Sequence record: PV730299.1
Source of the DNA: a phage
Reading direction: 5' to 3' (one strand)
DNA: 64,000 nucleotides
Shown here: piece by piece, positions 29,635-38,193 of the stretch
Layout of the letters: each line of letters opens with the position of its first letter
How positions within the stretch are numbered: the first letter of the stretch is position 1
Translations under genes and position numbers: made by a program
Notes under the pieces: model-generated
What the model was told of the DNA's origin: nothing
Seen by the model: the letters and a program-made list of their open reading frames with translations, nothing else
Database searches by the model: none

Positions 29635-31878
29635 TTAGATTTTGATTTCTTTCTCTGTCAGTTCGGCAGTGACCTTGTACTTCACGCCATCCACTTCAAC
29701 TTCCATGGTGGACTCTTCCAAGTCGAGGTCGGTGAACCAGCCATGGCCAGCAACGATACCATAAACCACTTTAGACAGCGTCTTGTTCAGGGCACGGACT
29801 TCGGTGATGGCCGCCTTGGCAGCAGCGTCGATCCAGTTTTCGATCAGATGTTTCTGTAAGGCTTCAGGCACGGCAGTGATCATAGGAGACTTCACGAATG
29901 CTTCGTACTCCTTCAGCGCATTGGCGATGAACAAGTCACCAGCATTGAGTTTCTTGTTCTCGGCAATCTTCTTCTGTACCGCTGCGATAGACGGTAGAGA
30001 AGAAGCGCCAGCGATCTTCACGTTCAGCTCACGGCTCATGTAGAAGTCGGTAGACTCTTTGGTCTCAGTCTTCGGTGAGAATCCGTAATCGCGGATGCCG
30101 TAGGAGGACAGGAACTCGGCCGCCTCAGCGCCGTACTGTACTGCCAGGCCTTTGGCGTTACCCTTACCAACCAGGGCGTCTCGATAGAACTTCAGCACCT
30201 TCTGCTTGCCTTTCAGGGCTTCCAGACGGACATTATCCGCAAAGAACTGAGCAGCACTGATGTTCTTGACCATGGCGCGGTTGACCAGTGGTACACTTTC
30301 CAGGTTCAGGACAAACACTTCTGGACCACCAAACACGTGGACACCCATTTCGATCAGCTTATGCACGACTTCGATATCAGCCTTGAACGGCAGAGTCTTC
30401 ACGTTAATGATACCGTCTTTGACGATCGTGTAGTTGCGCCACTGGAAAGTATCCAGTTCTTCAGGCAGGCCGAACTTCTTCTGTGCGAATTCAGGCACAG
30501 CCACAGTACCGTGTTGAATTGTACGCACACTGATGTTCGGGCGCTCGGAGTTATAGACCAAATCGCTGATTGGCACAACACCCAGGTCGTTGGTAGGTTC
30601 GAACGTCGGGTTCCACTCTTCGTGCTCTGCCAGCTTGAGAGCCAGGGCTTTACGCTCTTCTTTGGACTGAGCATTCGCGATCTGTTCTGCCAGCTTGTCT
30701 TCGGTGTCGTCGGTTTTCTGCACAGTACCGCGCCCGATACTCTTATAGGAGAACATCGGATGCTTGGTAGCAACAGGCACACCAGCTTCAGCCAGGTACG
30801 TCAGCACATCAACAACGGTGGTCGCGTCTTCGGCCGGAACCAGGTCATAGTCAATACCGTCAACGCCGCGCAGCTGGTCGTCAACAATCGCCTGAACCAG
30901 ATCGTTCTTGATGTTGGAGTAGTCCTGCTTGGTGAAGCAGTTGCTGTACTGTTTGATGAAGCGAACGTCACCCGTTTTCTTCAGTGCAGCCCACACCAGG
31001 TCCGCGTCCATGATGTGTACGCCGTAGAACGCCAGCACGTATGCCGCCTGGATATCCGTCAGACTATCCATCTGGTCGATCATGTTAGGGTTTACAACCC
31101 ACAGCTTGGTGACGCTCTCAGGGATGCTCACATAGCCGACCGGGTGAGAGTCATCGTCCTGCACCGCCAGTACTGTTGCCACACCGTTTTCGACGTAGAT
31201 GGCATGGGTGTAGATGACTGGGACATCAACTTTCACCTTCGGCACTGATGACTTCAGCACGTTTTCCAGTTCGGTCTGGTATTCGGTCTGACCTTCGGCA
31301 AACACATGAGTCGCGCCAGAGCGCTCGGACATCAGAGCCAGCAGTTCGCGGTTACAGTGCCAGCCGTATTCGATGAAAGTAATGTTATCGAACACAGAAG
31401 GCAAGGTTTCGGCGACGGCCAGGATTTCGTTTGAGCGCCAGCAGTTGTCATAACCATCGGTCATGAATGCCAGGTTGTTGACGTAACCAGGTTTCTTCAG
31501 GTCACGCGCAGTATCCATCGCCAGTTTCAACGGCTCAACGAAGCCAGTACATCCGGACGGTTGCAGGAAGCGATCGATCAGTTTGTTCAGCTCGCTCAGG
31601 TCAGACGCAGCACTAACCTGGCGGCCAGCGAACACAGTACCAAAGTCGCCTTTGGAGGAGAAATACAGAACGCTCACAGTGTCTTCCGGTTTCACCAGGG
31701 AAGGCAGGTTCTCCTTCAGATGCTTACGGACTTCAGGGAGCGCACGGTACATAGAGCCGGAAATGTCTACAACGATTACATGGTTGGACGGGGCAGCAGT
31801 CGCAACCGCATTCTTAAATTCTAATGATTCAATCATTGTTCTCTTCGCCTTGTGCGTAAGGGTTAAGTTCAGACTCAT
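29635..31878 (-). CDS. von Willebrand factor A (VWA) domain protein, function unknown
   Basis: 747 aa; N-terminal VWA with MIDAS motif VIVVDISGSM and downstream T/D residues; long C-terminal region without a recognised family; start could alternatively be the ATG 14 codons in (MIESLEF). Confidence 0.7.
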   Translation of the reverse strand: MSLNLTLTHKAKRTMIESLEFKNAVATAAPSNHVIVVDISGSMYRALPEVRKHLKENLPSLVKPEDTVSVLYFSSKGDFGTVFAGRQVSAASDLSELNKLIDRFLQPSGCTGFVEPLKLAMDTARDLKKPGYVNNLAFMTDGYDNCWRSNEILAVAETLPSVFDNITFIEYGWHCNRELLALMSERSGATHVFAEGQTEYQTELENVLKSSVPKVKVDVPVIYTHAIYVENGVATVLAVQDDDSHPVGYVSIPESVTKLWVVNPNMIDQMDSLTDIQAAYVLAFYGVHIMDADLVWAALKKTGDVRFIKQYSNCFTKQDYSNIKNDLVQAIVDDQLRGVDGIDYDLVPAEDATTVVDVLTYLAEAGVPVATKHPMFSYKSIGRGTVQKTDDTEDKLAEQIANAQSKEERKALALKLAEHEEWNPTFEPTNDLGVVPISDLVYNSERPNISVRTIQHGTVAVPEFAQKKFGLPEELDTFQWRNYTIVKDGIINVKTLPFKADIEVVHKLIEMGVHVFGGPEVFVLNLESVPLVNRAMVKNISAAQFFADNVRLEALKGKQKVLKFYRDALVGKGNAKGLAVQYGAEAAEFLSSYGIRDYGFSPKTETKESTDFYMSRELNVKIAGASSLPSIAAVQKKIAENKKLNAGDLFIANALKEYEAFVKSPMITAVPEALQKHLIENWIDAAAKAAITEVRALNKTLSKVVYGIVAGHGWFTDLDLEESTMEVEVDGVKYKVTAELTEKEIKI

Positions 31879-32044: not shown

Positions 32045-32110
32045 TTGATCTCACTTAACAGAGACGAAGCCCTGTTGGGATTTAATAGCGGTCTTCACAG
32101 ACATCAGGTT

Positions 32111-32138
32111 TCCCTCAAAACAGGGGAGTCTCCTCCCC
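32111..32138 (-). terminator. rho-independent terminator downstream of the NadV-like gene
   Basis: Hairpin GGGGAG-N4-CTCCCC followed by TGTTTTGAGGG on the minus-strand transcript. Confidence 0.6.
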
Positions 32139-32146
32139 TTCGGTTA

Positions 32147-33811
32147 TCAGATTTGTGAGGCCAGTTCTGTCACCAGAGGAGCGGCACGAACACGCGCATC
32201 TTCCAGTGTTTGAGTATTGAAGAACTCGCCATCACGATACACCAGCTGGTGCTGGTTGTCGGCGTCTTGCACCTGATCAAAGGTGATACCGTCAACCAAC
32301 ACTAGTTTACCCTGAGAGTCTTTAATGACTTTAAGGAAACCACGCGCAGACTTTTTAGTCCCGCCTTTATCGGTCTTCGGCTCTTTGAAGATCTCACGGA
32401 ATTCGCCGTTCACTTTACCAGCCGTGGCTTTCACCGCCGTGCCAGTACTGTCACGGGTGTTCATCTGGTAGGTGTAGGAACCGATACCGAACACCACGTT
32501 GATGGAAGCGAAGTTCCGGTCAGCCAGACGGCTAAAGATCTGGTCTTCACGCGACAGGGTGATAGAATCACCGTAGATCAGGCCGATGTGCTCATCCAAC
32601 AGGAAGTGCCCAGTTTCAGTCTGGGTGCCACCAAAGATCTCCCACAGGCGCTGGATAGAGCCGACCGCTTCTGAACGGCTGATGATATTACGGTCATCTG
32701 CCATCAGAGAGTTGATCGTGCCTTCGCCTGTAATCAGGTGGTAGGTGTTCGTCTCTTCGATGTGAATAACTTCTGTGTCGCTAGACACACCGCTAATGTT
32801 CAGCGTGGCACGGTCTTTGAACCCCTCGATGCGGTAGCCGCCAACAATGTGTACAGGGTCGCCCGAGTCGGGGCGGATCACGACTTTACCATTGCGCGCC
32901 ATGATAATGTCTTTCAGGCGAGGGAGATAGTCGTCGATGACCTGCCAGTAATCCCATGCATCAGACACGATGCTGACGGTGCCATCAGGATACACGTCCT
33001 GCACCAGGCGGCGGAAGGTTTCGAATTCGCCATCCTTCGTGCCCATACACATCACGGCGTGTTCGGTAGCCGCAACAGAACCAGCAACGACATAATCTTC
33101 GTCGATGTCTGCGCCATAATACTCTTCTACGAAGTCTAGGGCAGGGTTGGTATCGGTGCCTTTGAAGAACACCAGATGACCGGAACCGGAAGACGCCGCG
33201 TCATGCCACCCGCTCATACCACGGAAGGAGAAGTCGTGGCCTTGGTAGTCGATGAACCAATGGTCCGGCGACACGCCTGTAGCGAGGGCAGCTTTCACCA
33301 TCAGTGCCTTGTAATGCAGAGCTATGGTGGCGTTCGTCATCGGCTTCCATATCTCAGAGCTGAACACGGTCTCCAGATAGTTGGTCAGCCAGTAGAACTC
33401 CGGCAGGGTATTGAACATCACATACACCGGAACGCCATACGGGCACATGGTGCCTTCAGGCAGCGCACGGACTTCGATAGGAAGGTAGCCGAGGTCATGC
33501 AGGGCTTCAATATGCTCTGTGCCGACGCGGCCTGGACCCAGGACTTTGTTCATGCGACGGGCATACTTCTTCAGCACCTTGGCCTTCGGGCACTGGAAGA
33601 ATGCTTCGTCAAACAGTTCGTGGAACCAGGTCATGAAGCCCTGGATGCCCCAGACCACCACTCCGTTCTTCGGCAGGTGAGAGTTGAACAGTTTGTTAGA
33701 GCGCGGAGTTCCGTTGGAGAACACCAGCTCACTGCCTTCAGGGAACTGATAGATGTGCCCCGATTTGTAGAAGTCGATTGCATGGATTGGGTCTAAGTGG
33801 CGCATGCTCAT
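32147..33811 (-). CDS. nadV: nicotinamide phosphoribosyltransferase family protein (NadV/Nampt-like; candidate Namat of a NARP1 module)
   Basis: 554 aa with overall Nampt/NadV-like character; start overlaps the stop of the Prs-like gene (ATGA). Confidence 0.85.
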   Translation of the reverse strand: MSMRHLDPIHAIDFYKSGHIYQFPEGSELVFSNGTPRSNKLFNSHLPKNGVVVWGIQGFMTWFHELFDEAFFQCPKAKVLKKYARRMNKVLGPGRVGTEHIEALHDLGYLPIEVRALPEGTMCPYGVPVYVMFNTLPEFYWLTNYLETVFSSEIWKPMTNATIALHYKALMVKAALATGVSPDHWFIDYQGHDFSFRGMSGWHDAASSGSGHLVFFKGTDTNPALDFVEEYYGADIDEDYVVAGSVAATEHAVMCMGTKDGEFETFRRLVQDVYPDGTVSIVSDAWDYWQVIDDYLPRLKDIIMARNGKVVIRPDSGDPVHIVGGYRIEGFKDRATLNISGVSSDTEVIHIEETNTYHLITGEGTINSLMADDRNIISRSEAVGSIQRLWEIFGGTQTETGHFLLDEHIGLIYGDSITLSREDQIFSRLADRNFASINVVFGIGSYTYQMNTRDSTGTAVKATAGKVNGEFREIFKEPKTDKGGTKKSARGFLKVIKDSQGKLVLVDGITFDQVQDADNQHQLVYRDGEFFNTQTLEDARVRAAPLVTELASQI

Positions 33812-34662
33812 TTTACACGTCCTGTATTTTCAGTTTTGAAAGGAAGCCCGTCGGCGGTGATGTTCTCCCACCAGACAGTGTCGGCATACACAGCATCATA
33901 GATCCCGTCGAAAACAGAGAGACCTTTGCTGAAGATGCCATGGGTAACGAAGAGTGTCATGTGCTTAGGCTTGTGCTTCTGAAGCTCTTTGCCTAACTCA
34001 ACGAAAGTGCGCCCGCCGTCGCAGATATCATCAACCACAACCAGATAGCGGTCTTTGATCAGTTCAGGGTTCGTAATACTCACCCCAATGATCTCACCAG
34101 TCTTGGTGTCACGGTTCTTGTGACCGTAGACAATAGGAACACCGTCCAACGACAGGCTGAGGGCTTCGGTCTTCTTAGCCGCGCCGCCGTCAGGGGCCAC
34201 CAACACAGCGTTGTTCCCACGGATGAACCAACCCAGATACTGACGCACGATGTAATCTTGCGGGACAACATGGACGTTGTTGATCAGAGAAGACACAACA
34301 TGGCTGTGAGGATCTTTGATCGCCACGCGGTCAAAGTTCATGCTATTGATGAACTCAGCCGCCCACTTCACAGACAGAGGCTCACCGAAGTCACAATGGC
34401 GGTCCTGGCGAGCATACGGGAAATAAGGGATATACGCATGGAATGTCGTCAGACGGTCCACGTTACCCAGACCACGAACGGCGTTTACCAGAAGCGCCAG
34501 CTCAATGAAGTCAGCCGATGATTTGATGTGAGCATCAATCACCACGTTCTGAACGTGGCCGATAGGGATACCAGACTTTTGAATCTTGATATGTTCCTCA
34601 CCACCTGGGAAGGTGAAGTGTTTGTAGAACACATCTTGGTCGTTCAATTTCAAACGAAACAT
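33808..34662 (-). CDS. prs: ribose-phosphate pyrophosphokinase family protein (Prs-like; candidate Adps of a NARP1 module)
   Basis: 284 aa; IPYFPYARQDR and VVDDICDGGRT match the Prs motifs IPYFGYARQDR and LVDDMIDTGGT, but the protein is shorter and more divergent than housekeeping Prs. Confidence 0.85.
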   Translation of the reverse strand: MFRLKLNDQDVFYKHFTFPGGEEHIKIQKSGIPIGHVQNVVIDAHIKSSADFIELALLVNAVRGLGNVDRLTTFHAYIPYFPYARQDRHCDFGEPLSVKWAAEFINSMNFDRVAIKDPHSHVVSSLINNVHVVPQDYIVRQYLGWFIRGNNAVLVAPDGGAAKKTEALSLSLDGVPIVYGHKNRDTKTGEIIGVSITNPELIKDRYLVVVDDICDGGRTFVELGKELQKHKPKHMTLFVTHGIFSKGLSVFDGIYDAVYADTVWWENITADGLPFKTENTGRVK

Positions 34663-34770
34663 AATGCAGCCTCATGGTGTATTGTACAGCCGTATTATAC
34701 TGTGATGCACAAATTGAAACGTCCAGCATTTACGCTGGACGTTATTGATATTGAAAAGGTTTTGACAAAC

Positions 34771-35404: not shown

Positions 35405-35698
35405 TTATCCCCAGCTTATGCGCCAGCCAACTGTAAGCGTCGCTCCTGCTCCTCTCTCCGTTTTCCATAATGGGTCAAACGATCTATGGGCTTTTTGCTT
35501 CTCGGCACGGAGAGCGGCATTCGCCATCCTTCCCAGAGGCTGTCTGCCGTCGCCATGGGCATGGCAACCGACACGGGCATCACACGGGGTGCATATCCAG
35601 AACTTCAGATTGCGGAGGTCAGGGCGATGAGGGTAGAGAACATCACCACCGACGAATTCGGCTGGGAGGCCACAGTAATCACATATAACATGTTTCAT
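35405..35698 (-). CDS. putative zinc-ribbon protein
   Basis: 98 aa from MKHVICDYCG; cysteine pairs CDYCG and CTPCDARVGCH; the track start at 35725 lies inside the upstream terminator hairpin. Confidence 0.5.
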   Translation of the reverse strand: MKHVICDYCGLPAEFVGGDVLYPHRPDLRNLKFWICTPCDARVGCHAHGDGRQPLGRMANAALRAEKQKAHRSFDPLWKTERGAGATLTVGWRISWG

Positions 35699-35705
35699 AT
35701 TCTTT

Positions 35706-35736
35706 GTCCAAAAGAAACCCCGCACATGGCGGGGTT
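35706..35736 (-). terminator. rho-independent terminator
   Basis: Hairpin AACCCCGC-N5-GCGGGGTT followed by TCTTTTGG on the minus-strand transcript. Confidence 0.6.
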
Positions 35737-36174: not shown

Positions 36175-38193
36175 TTAGAACACAACTTTCACAGTGCGGT
36201 TGAACGAACCGCTCACCTTCACGAACACGTGGTTACGTTGGGTGGTAGAGAAGCCCAGACCGGACAGCTGCTCAGTGCTTGGCTGTACTTTAATCTTACC
36301 ACCTAACATTTCAAAAACCTTGCGGTGTTTATCAAGTTCCGGCTTCAGATATTCGTTATAGAAACCACGGGTGCCGACAGGGTTAGCACAACCTTCCAGG
36401 ATGAAGAACACGTGCTTGTTGCCCGTCTGCTCGCCGTCCCAATGGTTTGGTGAGTTCAGAACCAGCTGTACCTTCTGGAAGACGGAGGTCTTGATGCCCC
36501 AGATTTCCTGAGAGCGAGCGTCGTCTTTCAGGGTAGAACTGATGTCAACCACCTGACCAGCGCGAACCTGAACCACAACAGCCAACGTGCGATCTTTGTT
36601 ACCCAAGCCAGGGTGTGAGAAGCGCTTAGTCTGACCTTTGTATTCAACTTCGATTTCGAAACCAACGTCACAGGTTTCACGCTTGTTGAAGTTGGTGACA
36701 TAGAACTCATAATTCCCGTCGCGCAGCTTGCTTTCATCGCTAAAGAAGATGTTCTCCACCGGACGGCGGTTTGGATCAATGCCGTCCATACCGTTCATGT
36801 CGATGTCCAGAGTTGCGCCAGTTGACGAACGACGGTTGCGAAAATATACGTGGTTGTGAAGAGGATCGTTCATGCTCAGATCCAGGTCGTCGTTGTTATG
36901 CCAAGCCAGTGACACACGGAGGAAACTGTCGACATTACCACCTGCGGTCTTCACGCGCTCTTTGATGGAGTCGGCCACTTCGCCATTGTACGACCAGCTG
37001 AAGCCGTTGTTCCACTTGAACAGGTTAGGAGCGCCTGCGGTGGCCGGAGCGATCAGGGACATCAGGTTGCCAATGTGAGAGTTTTCGACCAGCACTTCCA
37101 GGGAATGCGCCTTTGGCAACACGTTTGTCAGGAAGTCGTCGATCGTGATCTCTTCAACCTTGTCCAGGGACTTGGTCGGAGTCTTCACTTCAGACGCCAG
37201 CTGAGCAAACGGGTCCATCTTCTTCTGAGCTGCCAGATCGGCGAACAGAACGTTGTTGATGGTCAGATCGTCATACACGGCATAACGGCGACCCAGTGAA
37301 TCAGTCAGACCCAGCGCTTCGACTTCTTTCTGCGCGTTTTCAATCATCGACTTCGTGACCAGCGCGGTTGGGCGCTTGTAGTTCGTCGGAGCGACTTTGG
37401 CTTCAAAGGACTTCACGGCGGTTTCCAGATCCCGGCCTTCATTGAGGTCTACCAGCAGAGAGCCAATCACGGTATTACGAATGCCGTGAGGGGTATGACC
37501 GTTTGCACGGTAGCCAGTGCGCCAAGCCCACAGAGCGCGTTTCTCTTCTGCAGTTTGTTCGTACATGGTCTTGTTCACCACGAACGCCTGCACTGCCGCT
37601 TTGTGCTCTTCACCGCGATACAGAGAATTCTGGTCAATCAATTCCAGAACGATTTCAGCCGATTCCAGAGACAGTTCACGCAGGCCGCGCTCAAACACTT
37701 CAATCGCCTGGCGGATTTCACCCTTCTTAGAAGCGATGGTATCTGCCCGCAGAACATAGCTGCCCAGCAGGTCGGTGTGGAAGTGGTTGTAGGTGCGGAC
37801 AATACCATCTTTCATTTCGTGATTCGACTCAACACCAACTTTCTTGGTGTCGTTGAAGTACACGTCGACGATTGCGTGCTGCTTAACATACGCTGACAGC
37901 GCCGCAGCGACAACGTCGTATTCGTTACCCAGCTGAATGTTATCCCAGATAGAGATCACGTTCAGGTCGGCGTCGATGGTGACCACACCGCCGATGTTAC
38001 GGATGAATTGTTTACAGCAGGTGCAGTCGTGCTCGGTACGCTCACGGTAGAGCGGGTTGGTACCAGCAGGAAAAGAAGACAGATACAGATCCCACAGAGC
38101 ATCTTTATCGATGTTGGTCATGAACAGACCAGTTGCTGACATGGCTAGCACGTTGTTGTTAACAGCTACTGCGAAGGGCTTAAATTCTGACAT
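36175..38193 (-). CDS. large hypothetical protein (672 aa)
   Basis: Uninterrupted ORF with SD AGGAAGACTACACC-ATG; no polymerase, ligase or helicase motifs found by eye. Confidence 0.7.
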   Translation of the reverse strand: MSEFKPFAVAVNNNVLAMSATGLFMTNIDKDALWDLYLSSFPAGTNPLYRERTEHDCTCCKQFIRNIGGVVTIDADLNVISIWDNIQLGNEYDVVAAALSAYVKQHAIVDVYFNDTKKVGVESNHEMKDGIVRTYNHFHTDLLGSYVLRADTIASKKGEIRQAIEVFERGLRELSLESAEIVLELIDQNSLYRGEEHKAAVQAFVVNKTMYEQTAEEKRALWAWRTGYRANGHTPHGIRNTVIGSLLVDLNEGRDLETAVKSFEAKVAPTNYKRPTALVTKSMIENAQKEVEALGLTDSLGRRYAVYDDLTINNVLFADLAAQKKMDPFAQLASEVKTPTKSLDKVEEITIDDFLTNVLPKAHSLEVLVENSHIGNLMSLIAPATAGAPNLFKWNNGFSWSYNGEVADSIKERVKTAGGNVDSFLRVSLAWHNNDDLDLSMNDPLHNHVYFRNRRSSTGATLDIDMNGMDGIDPNRRPVENIFFSDESKLRDGNYEFYVTNFNKRETCDVGFEIEVEYKGQTKRFSHPGLGNKDRTLAVVVQVRAGQVVDISSTLKDDARSQEIWGIKTSVFQKVQLVLNSPNHWDGEQTGNKHVFFILEGCANPVGTRGFYNEYLKPELDKHRKVFEMLGGKIKVQPSTEQLSGLGFSTTQRNHVFVKVSGSFNRTVKVVF

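What the first reader, a model, noticed from the sequence alone, without database searches (positions are those of the whole stretch)
32147..34662. Adjacent Prs-like and NadV-like genes: candidate NARP1 NAD+ reconstitution anti-defence module
A divergent ribose-phosphate pyrophosphokinase homologue (284 aa) and a nicotinamide phosphoribosyltransferase homologue (554 aa) are translationally coupled (ATGA overlap) and flanked by a promoter-like TATAAT upstream and a terminator downstream. This two-gene architecture is what has been described for phage NARP1, where a Prs homologue (Adps) pyrophosphorylates ADP-ribose and a Nampt homologue (Namat) rebuilds NAD+ from ADPR-PP and nicotinamide, countering NAD+-depleting defences such as Thoeris, DSR and SIR2-HerA. 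No NMN adenylyltransferase (the extra enzyme needed for classical salvage) was recognised in the window, which favours the NARP1 reading. Which of the two chemistries these enzymes perform cannot be decided from sequence by eye.
Basis: partly seen in the sequence, partly recalled or inferred. Interest (0 to 1): 0.85.

Follow-up and report, generated by a model that had tools for sequence, protein, structure and literature searches.

The report
Known phage NAD+-rebuilding operon (NARP1)
These two overlapping phage genes are very probably the already-described NARP1 pair (Adps + Namat), which rebuilds NAD+ from the fragments left by NAD+-destroying bacterial defences; the same genes in sister phages are already listed in the paper that discovered the pathway, so the finding is correct but not new.

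Summary
On the minus strand, a 284-aa Prs-like gene (34662..33808) and a 554-aa Nampt-like gene (33811..32147) overlap by ATGA. A conserved TATAAT lies upstream and hairpins lie on both sides. The window is an Agtrevirus (Ackermannviridae) phage.

The NARP1 reading is supported. The small protein behaves like validated Adps and not like Prs: 269 vs 135 bits on an Adps profile, and it fails the curated Prs cut-offs as SpβL1 Adps does. The large protein is closest, by sequence and by fold, to the crystal structure of SpβL1 Namat (452 bits; TM 0.95). It keeps 16 of 20 NAD+-contact residues and carries the Namat clamp motif GSYTYQMNTRD, where NARP2-type Nampts have GGGLLQ. I found no NMNAT, Nudix, Macro or RyR partner. 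Both genes are under strong purifying selection (ω≈0.04).

It is not new. Orthologues in SKML-39, P46FS4, MK-13, Ag3 and EspM4VN are already in Osterman et al.'s Adps/Namat tables, and a 2024 Ackermannviridae review already proposes this role. The biochemistry and the anti-defence phenotype remain untested in this phage family.

Minor extras: the operon is a present/absent cassette within the genus, and the Namat carries an insertion at a hypervariable site.

The parts
33808..34662 (-). adps-like gene (284 aa): Prs homologue of the Adps clade. Catalytic Lys K182 (codon 34117-34119) aligns with SpβL1 Adps K162.
   Evidence: ORF. Pfam/PHROG/NCBIfam. Adps-HMM 268.7 bits vs 135.5 for E. coli Prs. 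BLASTP: 36% to Bas63 Adps, 33% to SpβL1 Adps, 27% to E. coli Prs. Adps-type loops DPHS, KNRDTKTGEI, DDICDGGRTF, THGIFS. omega 0.04.
32147..33811 (-). namat-like gene (554 aa): Nampt homologue of the Adps-associated (Namat) clade. Catalytic His H251; R313 = SpβL1 R306.
   Evidence: ORF. PDB sequence search: top hit 9W5X/9W5W Namat. Foldseek on AF2 model (pLDDT 93.7): Namat first. 16/20 NAD+-contact residues identical. 44-49% identity to Adps-linked Namats vs 28-31% to NARP2-type Nampts. omega 0.04.
33808..33811 (-). ATGA stop/start overlap (translational coupling of adps and namat). An AGGA Shine-Dalgarno-like element for namat lies at 33820-33823.
   Evidence: Coordinates; sequence read. Same arrangement annotated in LHE287.
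32450..32482 (-). Codons for the Namat selectivity-clamp helix motif G444-S-Y-T-Y-Q-M-N-T-R-D454.
   Evidence: Sequence. Motif definition: PMC12774641. Panel comparison. 120 homologues: position 7 = Y90/M13/F8/H8/C1. HdNadV control = GAQTYQRNTRD.
32663..32836 (-). Codons for the 58-aa insertion (aa 326-383) between invariant G325 and G384. Predicted as a confident small beta/alpha sub-domain.
   Evidence: Alignment. Hotspot statistics. Model secondary structure and pLDDT.
34694..34699 (-). -10-like TATAAT, 31 nt upstream of the adps ATG (no -35). GAGG ribosome-binding site at 34670-34673.
   Evidence: Not reported by the consensus scan. Unique in the window. Conserved in operon-less phage A221.
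34718..34743 (.). 10-bp GC-rich hairpin closing the upstream 77-aa gene; it forms the upstream boundary of the cassette region.
   Evidence: about -17 kcal/mol. Conserved in A221.
32116..32139 (-). Terminator-like hairpin AGGGGAG-GAGA-CTCCCCT + GTTTTG, starting 7 nt after the namat stop codon.
   Evidence: folding. Missed by the scan because the T-tract is short.

Best explanation
This is a two-gene NARP1 (NAD+ reconstitution pathway 1) operon of an Agtrevirus phage. When an NAD+-depleting defence (SIR2-, TIR- or SEFIR-type effectors: Thoeris I, DSR1/2, SIR2-HerA and the like) cleaves NAD+ into ADP-ribose and nicotinamide, the 284-aa enzyme (Adps) uses ATP to pyrophosphorylate the terminal ribose of ADPR, giving ADPR-PP. 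The 554-aa enzyme (Namat) then displaces the pyrophosphate with nicotinamide and regenerates NAD+ directly, with no NMN intermediate and no NMN adenylyltransferase.

Shown here: gene structure and coupling; clade membership of both proteins; conservation of catalytic and most NAD+-contact residues; Namat-like fold; absence of NMNAT, Macro and RyR partners; purifying selection; the accessory (cassette) nature of the operon.

Inferred by homology to SpβL1 and Bas63 (Osterman et al.; Lan et al.): the two reactions and the anti-defence phenotype.
For: Adps side. The Adps-clade HMM gives 268.7 bits vs 135.5 for E. coli Prs. Curated Prs models are failed in the same way as by validated Adps. The protein is 36% identical (131 bits) to Bas63 Adps vs 27% (73 bits) to E. 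coli Prs. Adps-type loop states are present throughout, and K182 equals the essential K162.

Namat side. SpβL1 Namat is the best PDB match by sequence (E 1.8e-134) and by fold (E 9e-57, TM 0.95, rmsd 2.0 A). 16 of 20 NAD+ contacts are identical, and the other four are R40K, F392Y, Y396M and A362S. The clamp motif GSYTYQMNTRD contrasts with GGGLLQ in KVP40-type and RB16 Nampts and with GAQTYQR in H. ducreyi NadV. tblastn scores across 2,034 phage records are bimodal, and the window protein falls in the Namat mode.

Context. ATGA coupling. No NMNAT or Nudix. omega about 0.04 for both genes at dS about 0.8.

Literature. Orthologues in SKML-39, P46FS4, MK-13, SenASZ3, EspM4VN, 0507-KN2-1 and Ag3 are listed as Adps (Namat within 10 genes = Yes) and as 'Adps-associated' Namat in Osterman et al. 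Tables S1/S2. Bas63, which shares the same host range class and the same insertion-bearing Namat subtype, was validated in vivo, including in a ΔpncC ΔnadR host.
Against: No enzyme or phage of the Ackermannviridae has been tested.

Position 7 of the clamp helix is Met, not the aromatic residue (Tyr396 in SpβL1) that stacks on adenine. The clamp loop has K40-L41-F42 rather than Arg, or Lys followed by an aromatic. In SpβL1, double clamp mutants lose 2- to 17-fold activity, so this enzyme's ADPR-PP preference could be weaker.

Namat retains PRPP-to-NMN activity in vitro, so some classical chemistry cannot be excluded.

Identity to the validated enzymes is moderate (33-36% for Adps, 45-50% for Namat).

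The 'no NMNAT' statement rests on motifs and on other people's annotation, with many hypothetical proteins in the genome.
Confidence: 0.88

Rival explanations
1. Classical nicotinamide salvage. The small enzyme is a true PRPP synthetase and the large one a true Nampt making NMN. Host enzymes (NadR, or PncC-NadD-NadE) finish NAD+ synthesis, boosting NAD+ in general rather than recycling ADPR.
For: This is the database annotation of both genes and the reading given for Agtrevirus in 2023. Namat-type enzymes still make NMN from PRPP in vitro at about half the rate of human Nampt. The clamp position 7 is Met rather than aromatic.
Against: The small protein fails the curated Prs thresholds by a wide margin and clusters with proteins shown not to use ribose-5-phosphate. 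Its flexible loop and ribose-phosphate loop differ from Prs in the Adps-specific way. The large protein is Namat-type by sequence, motif and fold. In Bas63 the operon still worked in a ΔpncC ΔnadR host. Phages that really use this route (NARP2) carry an Nmnat in 94% of cases; none is found here.
Confidence: 0.07
2. Nucleotide-supply module. The pair mainly raises PRPP (and NMN) to feed phage nucleotide synthesis alongside the phage ribonucleotide reductase and thymidylate synthase, with no anti-defence role.
For: This was proposed for related phages. The operon sits in a replication/nucleotide-metabolism gene block containing regA, clamp loader and RNR.
Against: The protein-level evidence against it is the same as for the first rival. 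The operon is dispensable and patchily distributed within the genus (8 of 14 genomes; cleanly absent in A221 and fGh-Ecl02), which is the pattern of an accessory counter-defence gene and not of core metabolism.
Confidence: 0.03
3. Decaying or inactive remnant carried along without function.
For: Relatives show loss (A221), an internal deletion that fuses the two genes (Ag3), and, in another phage family, a nonsense mutation (an ICP1 isolate).
Against: Both ORFs are intact, all catalytic residues are kept, and omega is about 0.04 at dS about 0.8 against the Klebsiella-phage orthologues.
Confidence: 0.01

Closest known systems
NARP1 of Escherichia phage Bas63 (JohannRWettstein; genes 79-80), validated in vivo by Osterman et al.
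   Same: adps-then-namat operon in a lytic enterobacterial myophage. Adps is 36% identical and the Felixounavirus-type Namat 45-47% identical. Same DDICDGGRTF / THGIFS Adps subtype. The Namat has an insertion at the same site and a K-x-F clamp loop. No Nmnat.
   Different: The Bas63-type insertion is about 20 aa longer and unrelated in sequence. Bas63-type clamp position 7 is Tyr and loop residue 4 is Trp; here they are Met and Leu. The genes overlap (ATGA) here, whereas the Felixounavirus genes are separated by about 45 nt.
NARP1 of Bacillus phage SpβL1 (biochemically characterised Adps and Namat; Namat crystal structures 9W5X/9W5W)
   Same: Best structural and sequence match for the large protein. 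K162/K182, R306/R313 and the catalytic His are conserved. 16 of 20 NAD+ contacts are identical.
   Different: SpβL1 Namat has a 12-residue loop where this protein has a 58-aa sub-domain. SpβL1 uses R40, F392 and Y396 to clamp adenine; this protein has K40, Y446 and M450. SpβL1 Adps belongs to the Gram-positive subtype (DDLSSFGGT, THAENS) and is only 28-33% identical.
NARP2 (Vibrio phage KVP40 Nampt + bifunctional Nmnat/Nudix)
   Same: Also a phage NAD+-restoring pathway built around a Nampt-family enzyme.
   Different: KVP40-type Nampt is only 31% identical, reads GGGLLQ at the clamp helix and has a short clamp loop. NARP2 needs an Nmnat, which is absent here, and lacks an Adps.
Extended NARP1 variants: NARP1-AP (with Macro-domain ADPR-1''-phosphatase Adpp) and RyDEP-containing operons
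   Same: Same Adps + Namat core.
   Different: No Macro (PF01661/PF14519/PF20016) or RyR (PF02026) domain in the three genes on either side. This is the minimal two-gene form, so it should not overcome aRES-type defence.
Chromosomal nrtR-prs-nadV operons of bacteria (e.g. Fibrella, Chitinophaga, Siphonobacter; NrtR regulon of Rodionov et al. 2008; 'bacterial NARP1' of Lan et al. 2026)
   Same: These are the nearest relatives outside the phage family. The Fibrella Prs-like protein is 41% identical (191 bits) to the window Adps, and the Namat-like proteins are about 50% identical with the same clamp motif.
   Different: They are cellular, lack the insertion, and sit next to the ADPR-responsive repressor NrtR. 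They are presumed to be housekeeping ADPR recycling rather than counter-defence.

Membership tests
NARP1 (Adps + Namat) | A Prs homologue that belongs to the phage-dominated Adps clade, separate from cellular Prs | tested here: met
   Adps-HMM 268.7 bits vs 135.5 for E. coli Prs. TIGR01251 106.8 (cut-off 113) and NF002320 84 (cut-off 297), as for validated SpβL1 Adps (106/74), while E. coli Prs scores 423/533. Near-identical orthologues are listed in Osterman Table S1.
NARP1 (Adps + Namat) | A Nampt homologue of the Adps-associated (Namat) clade | tested here: met
   Best PDB hit is Namat by sequence and by fold. 44-49% identity to six Adps-linked Namats vs 28-31% to two NARP2-type Nampts. Orthologues are labelled 'Adps-associated' in Table S2.
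NARP1 (Adps + Namat) | The two genes lie in the immediate vicinity of each other (within 10 genes; typically one operon) | tested here: met
   Adjacent on the same strand with a 4-nt ATGA overlap.
NARP1 (Adps + Namat) | Catalytic residues shown essential by mutagenesis: Adps Lys (SpβL1 K162), Namat Arg (R306), and the catalytic His | tested here: met
   K182. R313 and H251.
NARP1 (Adps + Namat) | Namat selectivity-clamp helix consensus GS-X-Φ-X-Φ-X-Φ-TRD, with X mostly aromatic and positions 3 and 7 contacting adenine | tested here: met
   GSYTYQMNTRD: the framework and aromatic 3 and 5 are present; position 7 is Met. Met is the second commonest state (13 of 120 homologues). Other Adps-linked Namats have C, H or F there. 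Nampt controls have GGGLLQ or GAQTYQR.
NARP1 (Adps + Namat) | Clamp loop (SCL) supplies an adenine-stacking residue: Arg at position 3, or Lys/Tyr followed by a stacking residue | tested here: inconclusive
   The loop is long, as in Namats (TPRSNKLFNSHLPKNG, vs ESRGGK in Nampts). It has K40 then L41 and F42, so the stacking partner is not obvious from sequence. No ligand-bound model was made.
NARP1 (Adps + Namat) | Adps makes ADPR-PP from ADPR + ATP and not PRPP from ribose-5-phosphate; Namat prefers ADPR-PP over PRPP | not testable with these tools
   Needs enzyme assays with LC-MS.
NARP1 (Adps + Namat) | Rescues phage from NAD+-depleting defence systems | not testable with these tools
   Needs phage knock-outs and plaque assays. 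No paper in the searchable library links NARP1 experiments to Ackermannviridae.
NARP2 (Nampt + Nmnat) | Nmnat (NMN adenylyltransferase, often fused to Nudix) encoded in the same phage | tested here: not met
   No (H/T)xGH or Nudix-box ORF in the window. None is annotated in the complete genome of the 98%-identical LHE287.
NARP2 (Nampt + Nmnat) | KVP40-type Nampt (PRPP-preferring clade) | tested here: not met
   31% identity, with a different clamp helix and loop. Low-score mode in tblastn.
NARP1-AP / RyDEP-extended NARP1 | Macro-domain phosphatase (Adpp) or RyR-domain glycosidase within about two genes of the operon | tested here: not met
   Pfam and PHROG scans of seven neighbours: only VWA and DUF3268 domains.
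Class I ribose-phosphate diphosphokinase (Prs) | Reaches the curated NCBIfam Prs thresholds; Prs-type loops (DLHA-EQIQGFF, KRRPR, DTGGT) | tested here: not met
   All 11 Prs models score below their cut-offs. The loops are of the Adps type.

The most novel reading that the evidence does not exclude
The window's Namat differs from the two characterised enzymes in two ways. It has a lineage-specific, confidently folded 58-aa sub-domain inserted at a site that is hypervariable across the family: 44 of 118 homologues carry 45-91 unrelated residues there and 61 carry a loop of 15 or fewer. It also has a non-aromatic clamp (M450, L41). The most novel reading not excluded is that this hotspot is an arms-race or regulatory surface. 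It might mediate Adps-Namat channelling (SpβL1 Namat does not bind Adps stably), evade a host inhibitor of Namat, or tune donor specificity between ADPR-PP and PRPP. If so, Ackermannviridae-type NARP1 would work measurably differently from the SpβL1 paradigm.
Probability: 0.12. Interest if true: 0.45.

Novelty: already known. Interest (0 to 1): 0.15.

Why it matters
Mechanistically it adds nothing to the published NARP1 picture. It confirms that an Agtrevirus-type E. coli phage carries the minimal two-gene form.

There is some practical value. Ackermannviridae are candidate therapeutic and biocontrol phages, and the operon is a clean present/absent cassette among near-identical genomes: AV101, LHE287 and YX22 have it, while A221 and fGh-Ecl02 do not. 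Natural near-isogenic pairs therefore exist to measure how much NARP1 widens host range against strains carrying SIR2-, TIR- or SEFIR-based NAD+-depleting defences.

Because no Macro-domain phosphatase is present, the phage is predicted to remain sensitive to aRES-type defence, which occurs in E. coli.

Tried and rejected
I located them by eye and by folding instead.

(2) I looked for a recurrent phage promoter motif. CAGTATAATA is unique in the window, and T4-late-type TATAAATA occurs twice, neither copy near the operon. No promoter class can be assigned.

(3) A literature search for PDB codes 9KE8/9KEO returned only irrelevant papers. The Foldseek table later identified the entry as H. ducreyi NadV.

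(4) A search for papers combining NARP1 with Ackermannviridae, Kuttervirus or Agtrevirus found no experimental work.

(5) I considered NARP1-AP and RyDEP-extended variants and rejected them, because no Macro or RyR domain is present in the neighbours.

(6) I considered that similarity to Namat might be uninformative, because chromosomal Bacteroidota 'NadV' proteins are equally similar. I rejected this: all three contexts checked also have an Adps-type neighbour, and a true stand-alone NadV (H. ducreyi) lacks the clamp residues.

(7) Model coordinates are not exposed to the sandbox, so I could not measure distances from the insertion to the active site or the dimer interface.

(8) Several fetched loci did not sync to the sandbox. 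As a result, the six-frame motif scan for NMNAT/Nudix covered only the window, and the rest of the genome was judged from LHE287's deposited annotation alone.

I used an HMM-based discrimination and the published tables instead.
Full report
**What is in the sequence.** One is a 284-aa ORF at 34662..33808 and the other a 554-aa ORF at 33811..32147. The stop codon of the first and the start codon of the second share the tetranucleotide ATGA at 33808-33811. An AGGA lies 8 nt upstream of the second ATG. The first gene is preceded by GAGG (34670-34673) and by an exact TATAAT (34694-34699), 31 nt from the ATG, but no acceptable -35 hexamer is present.

A generic consensus scan did not report the TATAAT and found no excess of promoter- or terminator-like sites over shuffled sequence: 3 vs 3.0 and 4 vs 3.1. 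The longer element CAGTATAATA is unique in the window. Two hairpins bracket the unit. A 10-bp GC-rich stem at 34718-34743 closes the upstream gene. AGGGGAG-GAGA-CTCCCCT followed by GTTTTG lies at 32116-32139, starting 7 nt after the second stop codon.

**Whose genome this is.** The operon region is 97-98% identical in DNA to Escherichia phages LHE287, YX22 and AV101, and about 93-94% identical to Salmonella and Shigella phages SKML-39, P46FS4, MK-13 and Gloob. The first 25 kb of the window is 97-98% identical to phages A221, fGh-Ecl02, AV101 and ZQ1. The window is thus a member of the genus Agtrevirus (Ackermannviridae). It is identical to no record in the collection. The operon sits in a long minus-strand block of replication and early genes that includes regA, the clamp loader and the sliding clamp.

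**The small protein is Adps-type, not Prs.** Pfam sees only the generic Pribosyltran_N and Pribosyltran domains. All eleven curated NCBIfam Prs models score below their thresholds: TIGR01251 gives 106.8 against a cut-off of 113, and NF002320 gives 84 against 297. A symmetric control shows what those numbers mean:

| Protein | TIGR01251 (bits) | NF002320 (bits) |
|---|---|---|
| Genuine E. coli Prs | 423 | 533 |
| SpβL1 Adps (biochemically validated) | 106 | 74 |
| Bas63 Adps (validated in vivo) | 139 | 101 |
| Window protein | 107 | 84 |

In the other direction, I built an HMM from 16 Adps-clade proteins of unrelated phages, all taken from Osterman et al. Table S1 and all with a Namat neighbour. 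It scores the window protein at 268.7 bits and E. coli Prs at 135.5. BLASTP gives 36% identity and 131 bits to Bas63 Adps, 33% and 95 bits to SpβL1 Adps, and 27% and 73 bits to E. coli Prs.

In a multiple alignment the window protein has the Adps state at every region where the Adps set differs from Prs:

| Region | Window / Adps type | E. coli Prs |
|---|---|---|
| D-x-H loop | DPHS | DLHA-EQIQGFF |
| Flexible loop | K182-N-R-D-T-K-T-G-E-I | KRRPRANV |
| Ribose-phosphate loop | DDICDGGRTF | DDMIDTGGTL |
| C-terminal motif | THGIFS | THPIFS |

These signatures are my own reading of 18 Adps sequences against a single Prs, not a published definition. K182 aligns with K162, the residue whose mutation inactivates SpβL1 Adps. 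No Adps structure exists in the PDB (also stated).

**The large protein is Namat-type, not Nampt.** Against all PDB sequences the best hits are 9W5X/9W5W (E 1.8e-134, 452 bits), then 9KE8/9KEO (351 bits), then about thirty mammalian NAMPT entries (about 174 bits). 9W5X and 9W5W are the crystal structures of SpβL1 Namat. 9KE8 and 9KEO are Haemophilus ducreyi NadV.

I built an AlphaFold2 model on a 118-sequence alignment; it is high-confidence (pLDDT 93.7, pTM 0.93). Foldseek ranks the solved structures in the same order: Namat at E 9e-57, TM 0.95 and rmsd 2.0 A; HdNadV at 1e-47; mammalian NAMPT at 2e-40.

Twenty residues contact NAD+ in the SpβL1 Namat crystal structure. Sixteen are identical in the window protein. 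The other four are R40K, F392Y, Y396M and A362S. The catalytic His (H251) and the essential Arg (R313 = R306) are present.

Lan et al. define the Namat 'selectivity-clamp helix' as GS-X-Φ-X-Φ-X-Φ-TRD, with mostly aromatic X and with positions 3 and 7 stacking on adenine. The window protein reads GSYTYQMNTRD. I compared it with a panel:

- Six Adps-linked Namats (Felixounavirus, Antha, Pakpunavirus, Kayvirus, a mycobacteriophage and ICP1) all read GS[YF][TS]YQ-x-x-TRD, with Y, F, C, F, H and Y at position 7.
- Two NARP2-type Nampts (KVP40-species VH1_2019 and RB16) read GGGLLQ.
- Stand-alone HdNadV reads GAQTYQRNTRD.

Identity to the Namat group is 44-49%; to the Nampt group it is 28-31%. Among the 120 closest proteins in a 5.8-billion-protein database, position 7 is Tyr in 90, Met in 13, Phe in 8, His in 8 and Cys in 1. 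Met is therefore a regular minority state and not an anomaly.

The clamp loop is long, as in Namats, but its stacking residue cannot be named from sequence (K40-L41-F42). Across 2,034 phage records, tblastn scores are bimodal (320-470 bits vs 100-160 bits), and the window protein belongs to the upper, Namat mode.

**No partner enzymes.** No ORF in the window has an NMNAT-type (H/T)xGH motif or a Nudix box. No NMNAT, NadR or Nudix protein is annotated anywhere in the complete LHE287 genome, although many of its genes are 'hypothetical'. The seven neighbouring genes carry only VWA and DUF3268 domains or nothing. This is therefore neither NARP1-AP (Macro-domain Adpp) nor a RyDEP-extended operon.

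**The genes are functional and accessory.** Against the orthologues in Klebsiella phage RCIP0012, dS is about 0.8 and dN about 0.03, giving ω of 0.04 for both genes. Sørensen et al. found the pair in 8 of 14 Agtrevirus genomes. In A221 the upstream 77-aa gene, its hairpin and the CAGTATAAT element are conserved, and the sequence then runs directly into the small ORF and the VWA gene. Coverage of my 8.6-kb query drops to 67% in A221 and fGh-Ecl02, which is the amount expected for a 2.6-kb deletion. The operon is thus a discrete cassette placed just downstream of a conserved -10-like element.

**How it most likely works.** By homology with SpβL1 and Bas63, Adps pyrophosphorylates ADP-ribose with ATP and Namat joins ADPR-PP to nicotinamide. 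This restores NAD+ only when a defence system has cleaved it. These two reactions and the phenotype are inferred, not shown. I put the probability at about 0.88.

The main rival is classical PRPP-to-NMN salvage completed by host enzymes. Three points keep it alive: the residual PRPP activity of Namat, the non-aromatic clamp position, and the absence of any experiment in this phage family. The Adps-type features of the first enzyme and the ΔpncC ΔnadR result for Bas63 argue against it.

**Comparison with what is known, and novelty.** Osterman et al.'s Supplementary Tables 1 and 2 already list the orthologues from SKML-39, P46FS4, MK-13, SenASZ3, EspM4VN, 0507-KN2-1 and Ag3. They appear as Prs/Adps homologues with 'Namat within 10 genes = Yes' and as 'Adps-associated' Namat. 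A 2024 review of the Ackermannviridae cites that work and states that the NAMPT and RPPK genes of Agtrevirus could be a way to evade NAD+-depleting defence. I found no paper reporting an experiment on NARP1 in this family. The finding is therefore a correct re-identification of an already catalogued system, and I rate it 'already known' with low interest (0.15).

**Things seen on the way.**

(a) The insertion after RPDSGDPVHIVGG (aa 326-383) is predicted to fold as a small β/α sub-domain. The site between invariant G325 and G384 is a length- and sequence-hypervariable hotspot: 61 of 118 homologues have 15 residues or fewer there, and 44 have 45-91. The Namat structural paper does not discuss it.

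(b) The nearest relatives outside the phage family are chromosomal Bacteroidota operons of the form nrtR, adps-like, namat-like. NrtR is the repressor that ADP-ribose releases, and its control of a second 'prs' paralogue next to nadV was called unexplained in 2008. Bacterial NARP1 is already recognised, but no searchable paper mentions both NrtR and NARP1.

(c) Shigella phage Ag3 carries an in-frame Adps(1-222)::Namat(226-) fusion, which explains the odd PHROG 12872 hit.

(d) One ICP1 isolate has a nonsense codon early in its Namat.

Noticed in passing
window about 32045-34692 (cassette); compare L015 (phage A221) 7860-8440: The adps-namat pair is a clean present/absent cassette within Agtrevirus. 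In A221 and fGh-Ecl02 the upstream gene, its hairpin and the CAGTATAAT element run directly into the small ORF and the VWA gene. The small ORF downstream (71 aa here, 56 aa in A221) is conserved only in its C-terminal half.
   Followed up: partly
window 32663-32836 (Namat aa 326-383); alignment A3: The 58-aa insertion lies at a hypervariable hotspot between invariant G325 and G384. 61 of 118 homologues have 15 residues or fewer there, and 44 have 45-91 residues of unrelated sequence. It is predicted with high confidence as a small beta/alpha sub-domain. The Namat structure paper does not discuss it. Its position relative to the active site could not be measured.
   Followed up: partly
L016 4361-7467 (Fibrella aestuarina), L017 5321-8923 (Chitinophaga caseinilytica), L018 4371-7494 (Siphonobacter sp.): The closest non-phage relatives are chromosomal operons of nrtR (NUDIX+WHD_NrtR), an adps-like gene and a namat-like gene. 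Extra ADPR-related neighbours are present: ADP-ribosylglycohydrolase, Tpt1/KptA-like PTS_2-RNA, and Nudix. NrtR is de-repressed by ADP-ribose, so the long-unexplained NrtR-regulated 'prs-nadV' operons may be ADPR-inducible cellular NARP1. No searchable paper holds both 'NrtR' and 'NARP1'.
   Followed up: partly
Shigella phage Ag3 FJ373894 (protein P0009; Osterman Table S1 entry FJ373894_00125): Ag3 encodes a single 547-aa fusion of Adps residues 1-222 to Namat residues from about 226, through an internal in-frame deletion. This fusion seeded PHROG 12872, which is why both window proteins hit one 'nicotinamide phosphoribosyl transferase' PHROG. It is probably inactive, or a sequencing artefact.
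   Followed up: no
L009 2501-2720 (Vibrio phage ICP1_2017_F_Mathbaria): The Namat homologue of this ICP1 isolate has an in-frame stop at about codon 29 (…EVTHV*SNFT…). The record annotates a start 49 codons downstream, which would remove D13, Y15 and the clamp loop.
   Followed up: no
window 29635-31878 (-) and 36175-38193 (-): Two large conserved proteins of unknown function flank the operon region. One is a 747-aa protein with an N-terminal VWA domain (E 1e-6) and a faint virion-RNA-polymerase-domain hit at aa 651-699. The other is a 672-aa protein (PHROG 1735) that some relatives annotate as 'putative DNA-directed RNA polymerase'.
   Followed up: no
window 35405-35725 (-): A small DUF3268 zinc-finger protein (E 5e-19) lies three genes upstream of the operon. 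Its function is unknown.
   Followed up: no
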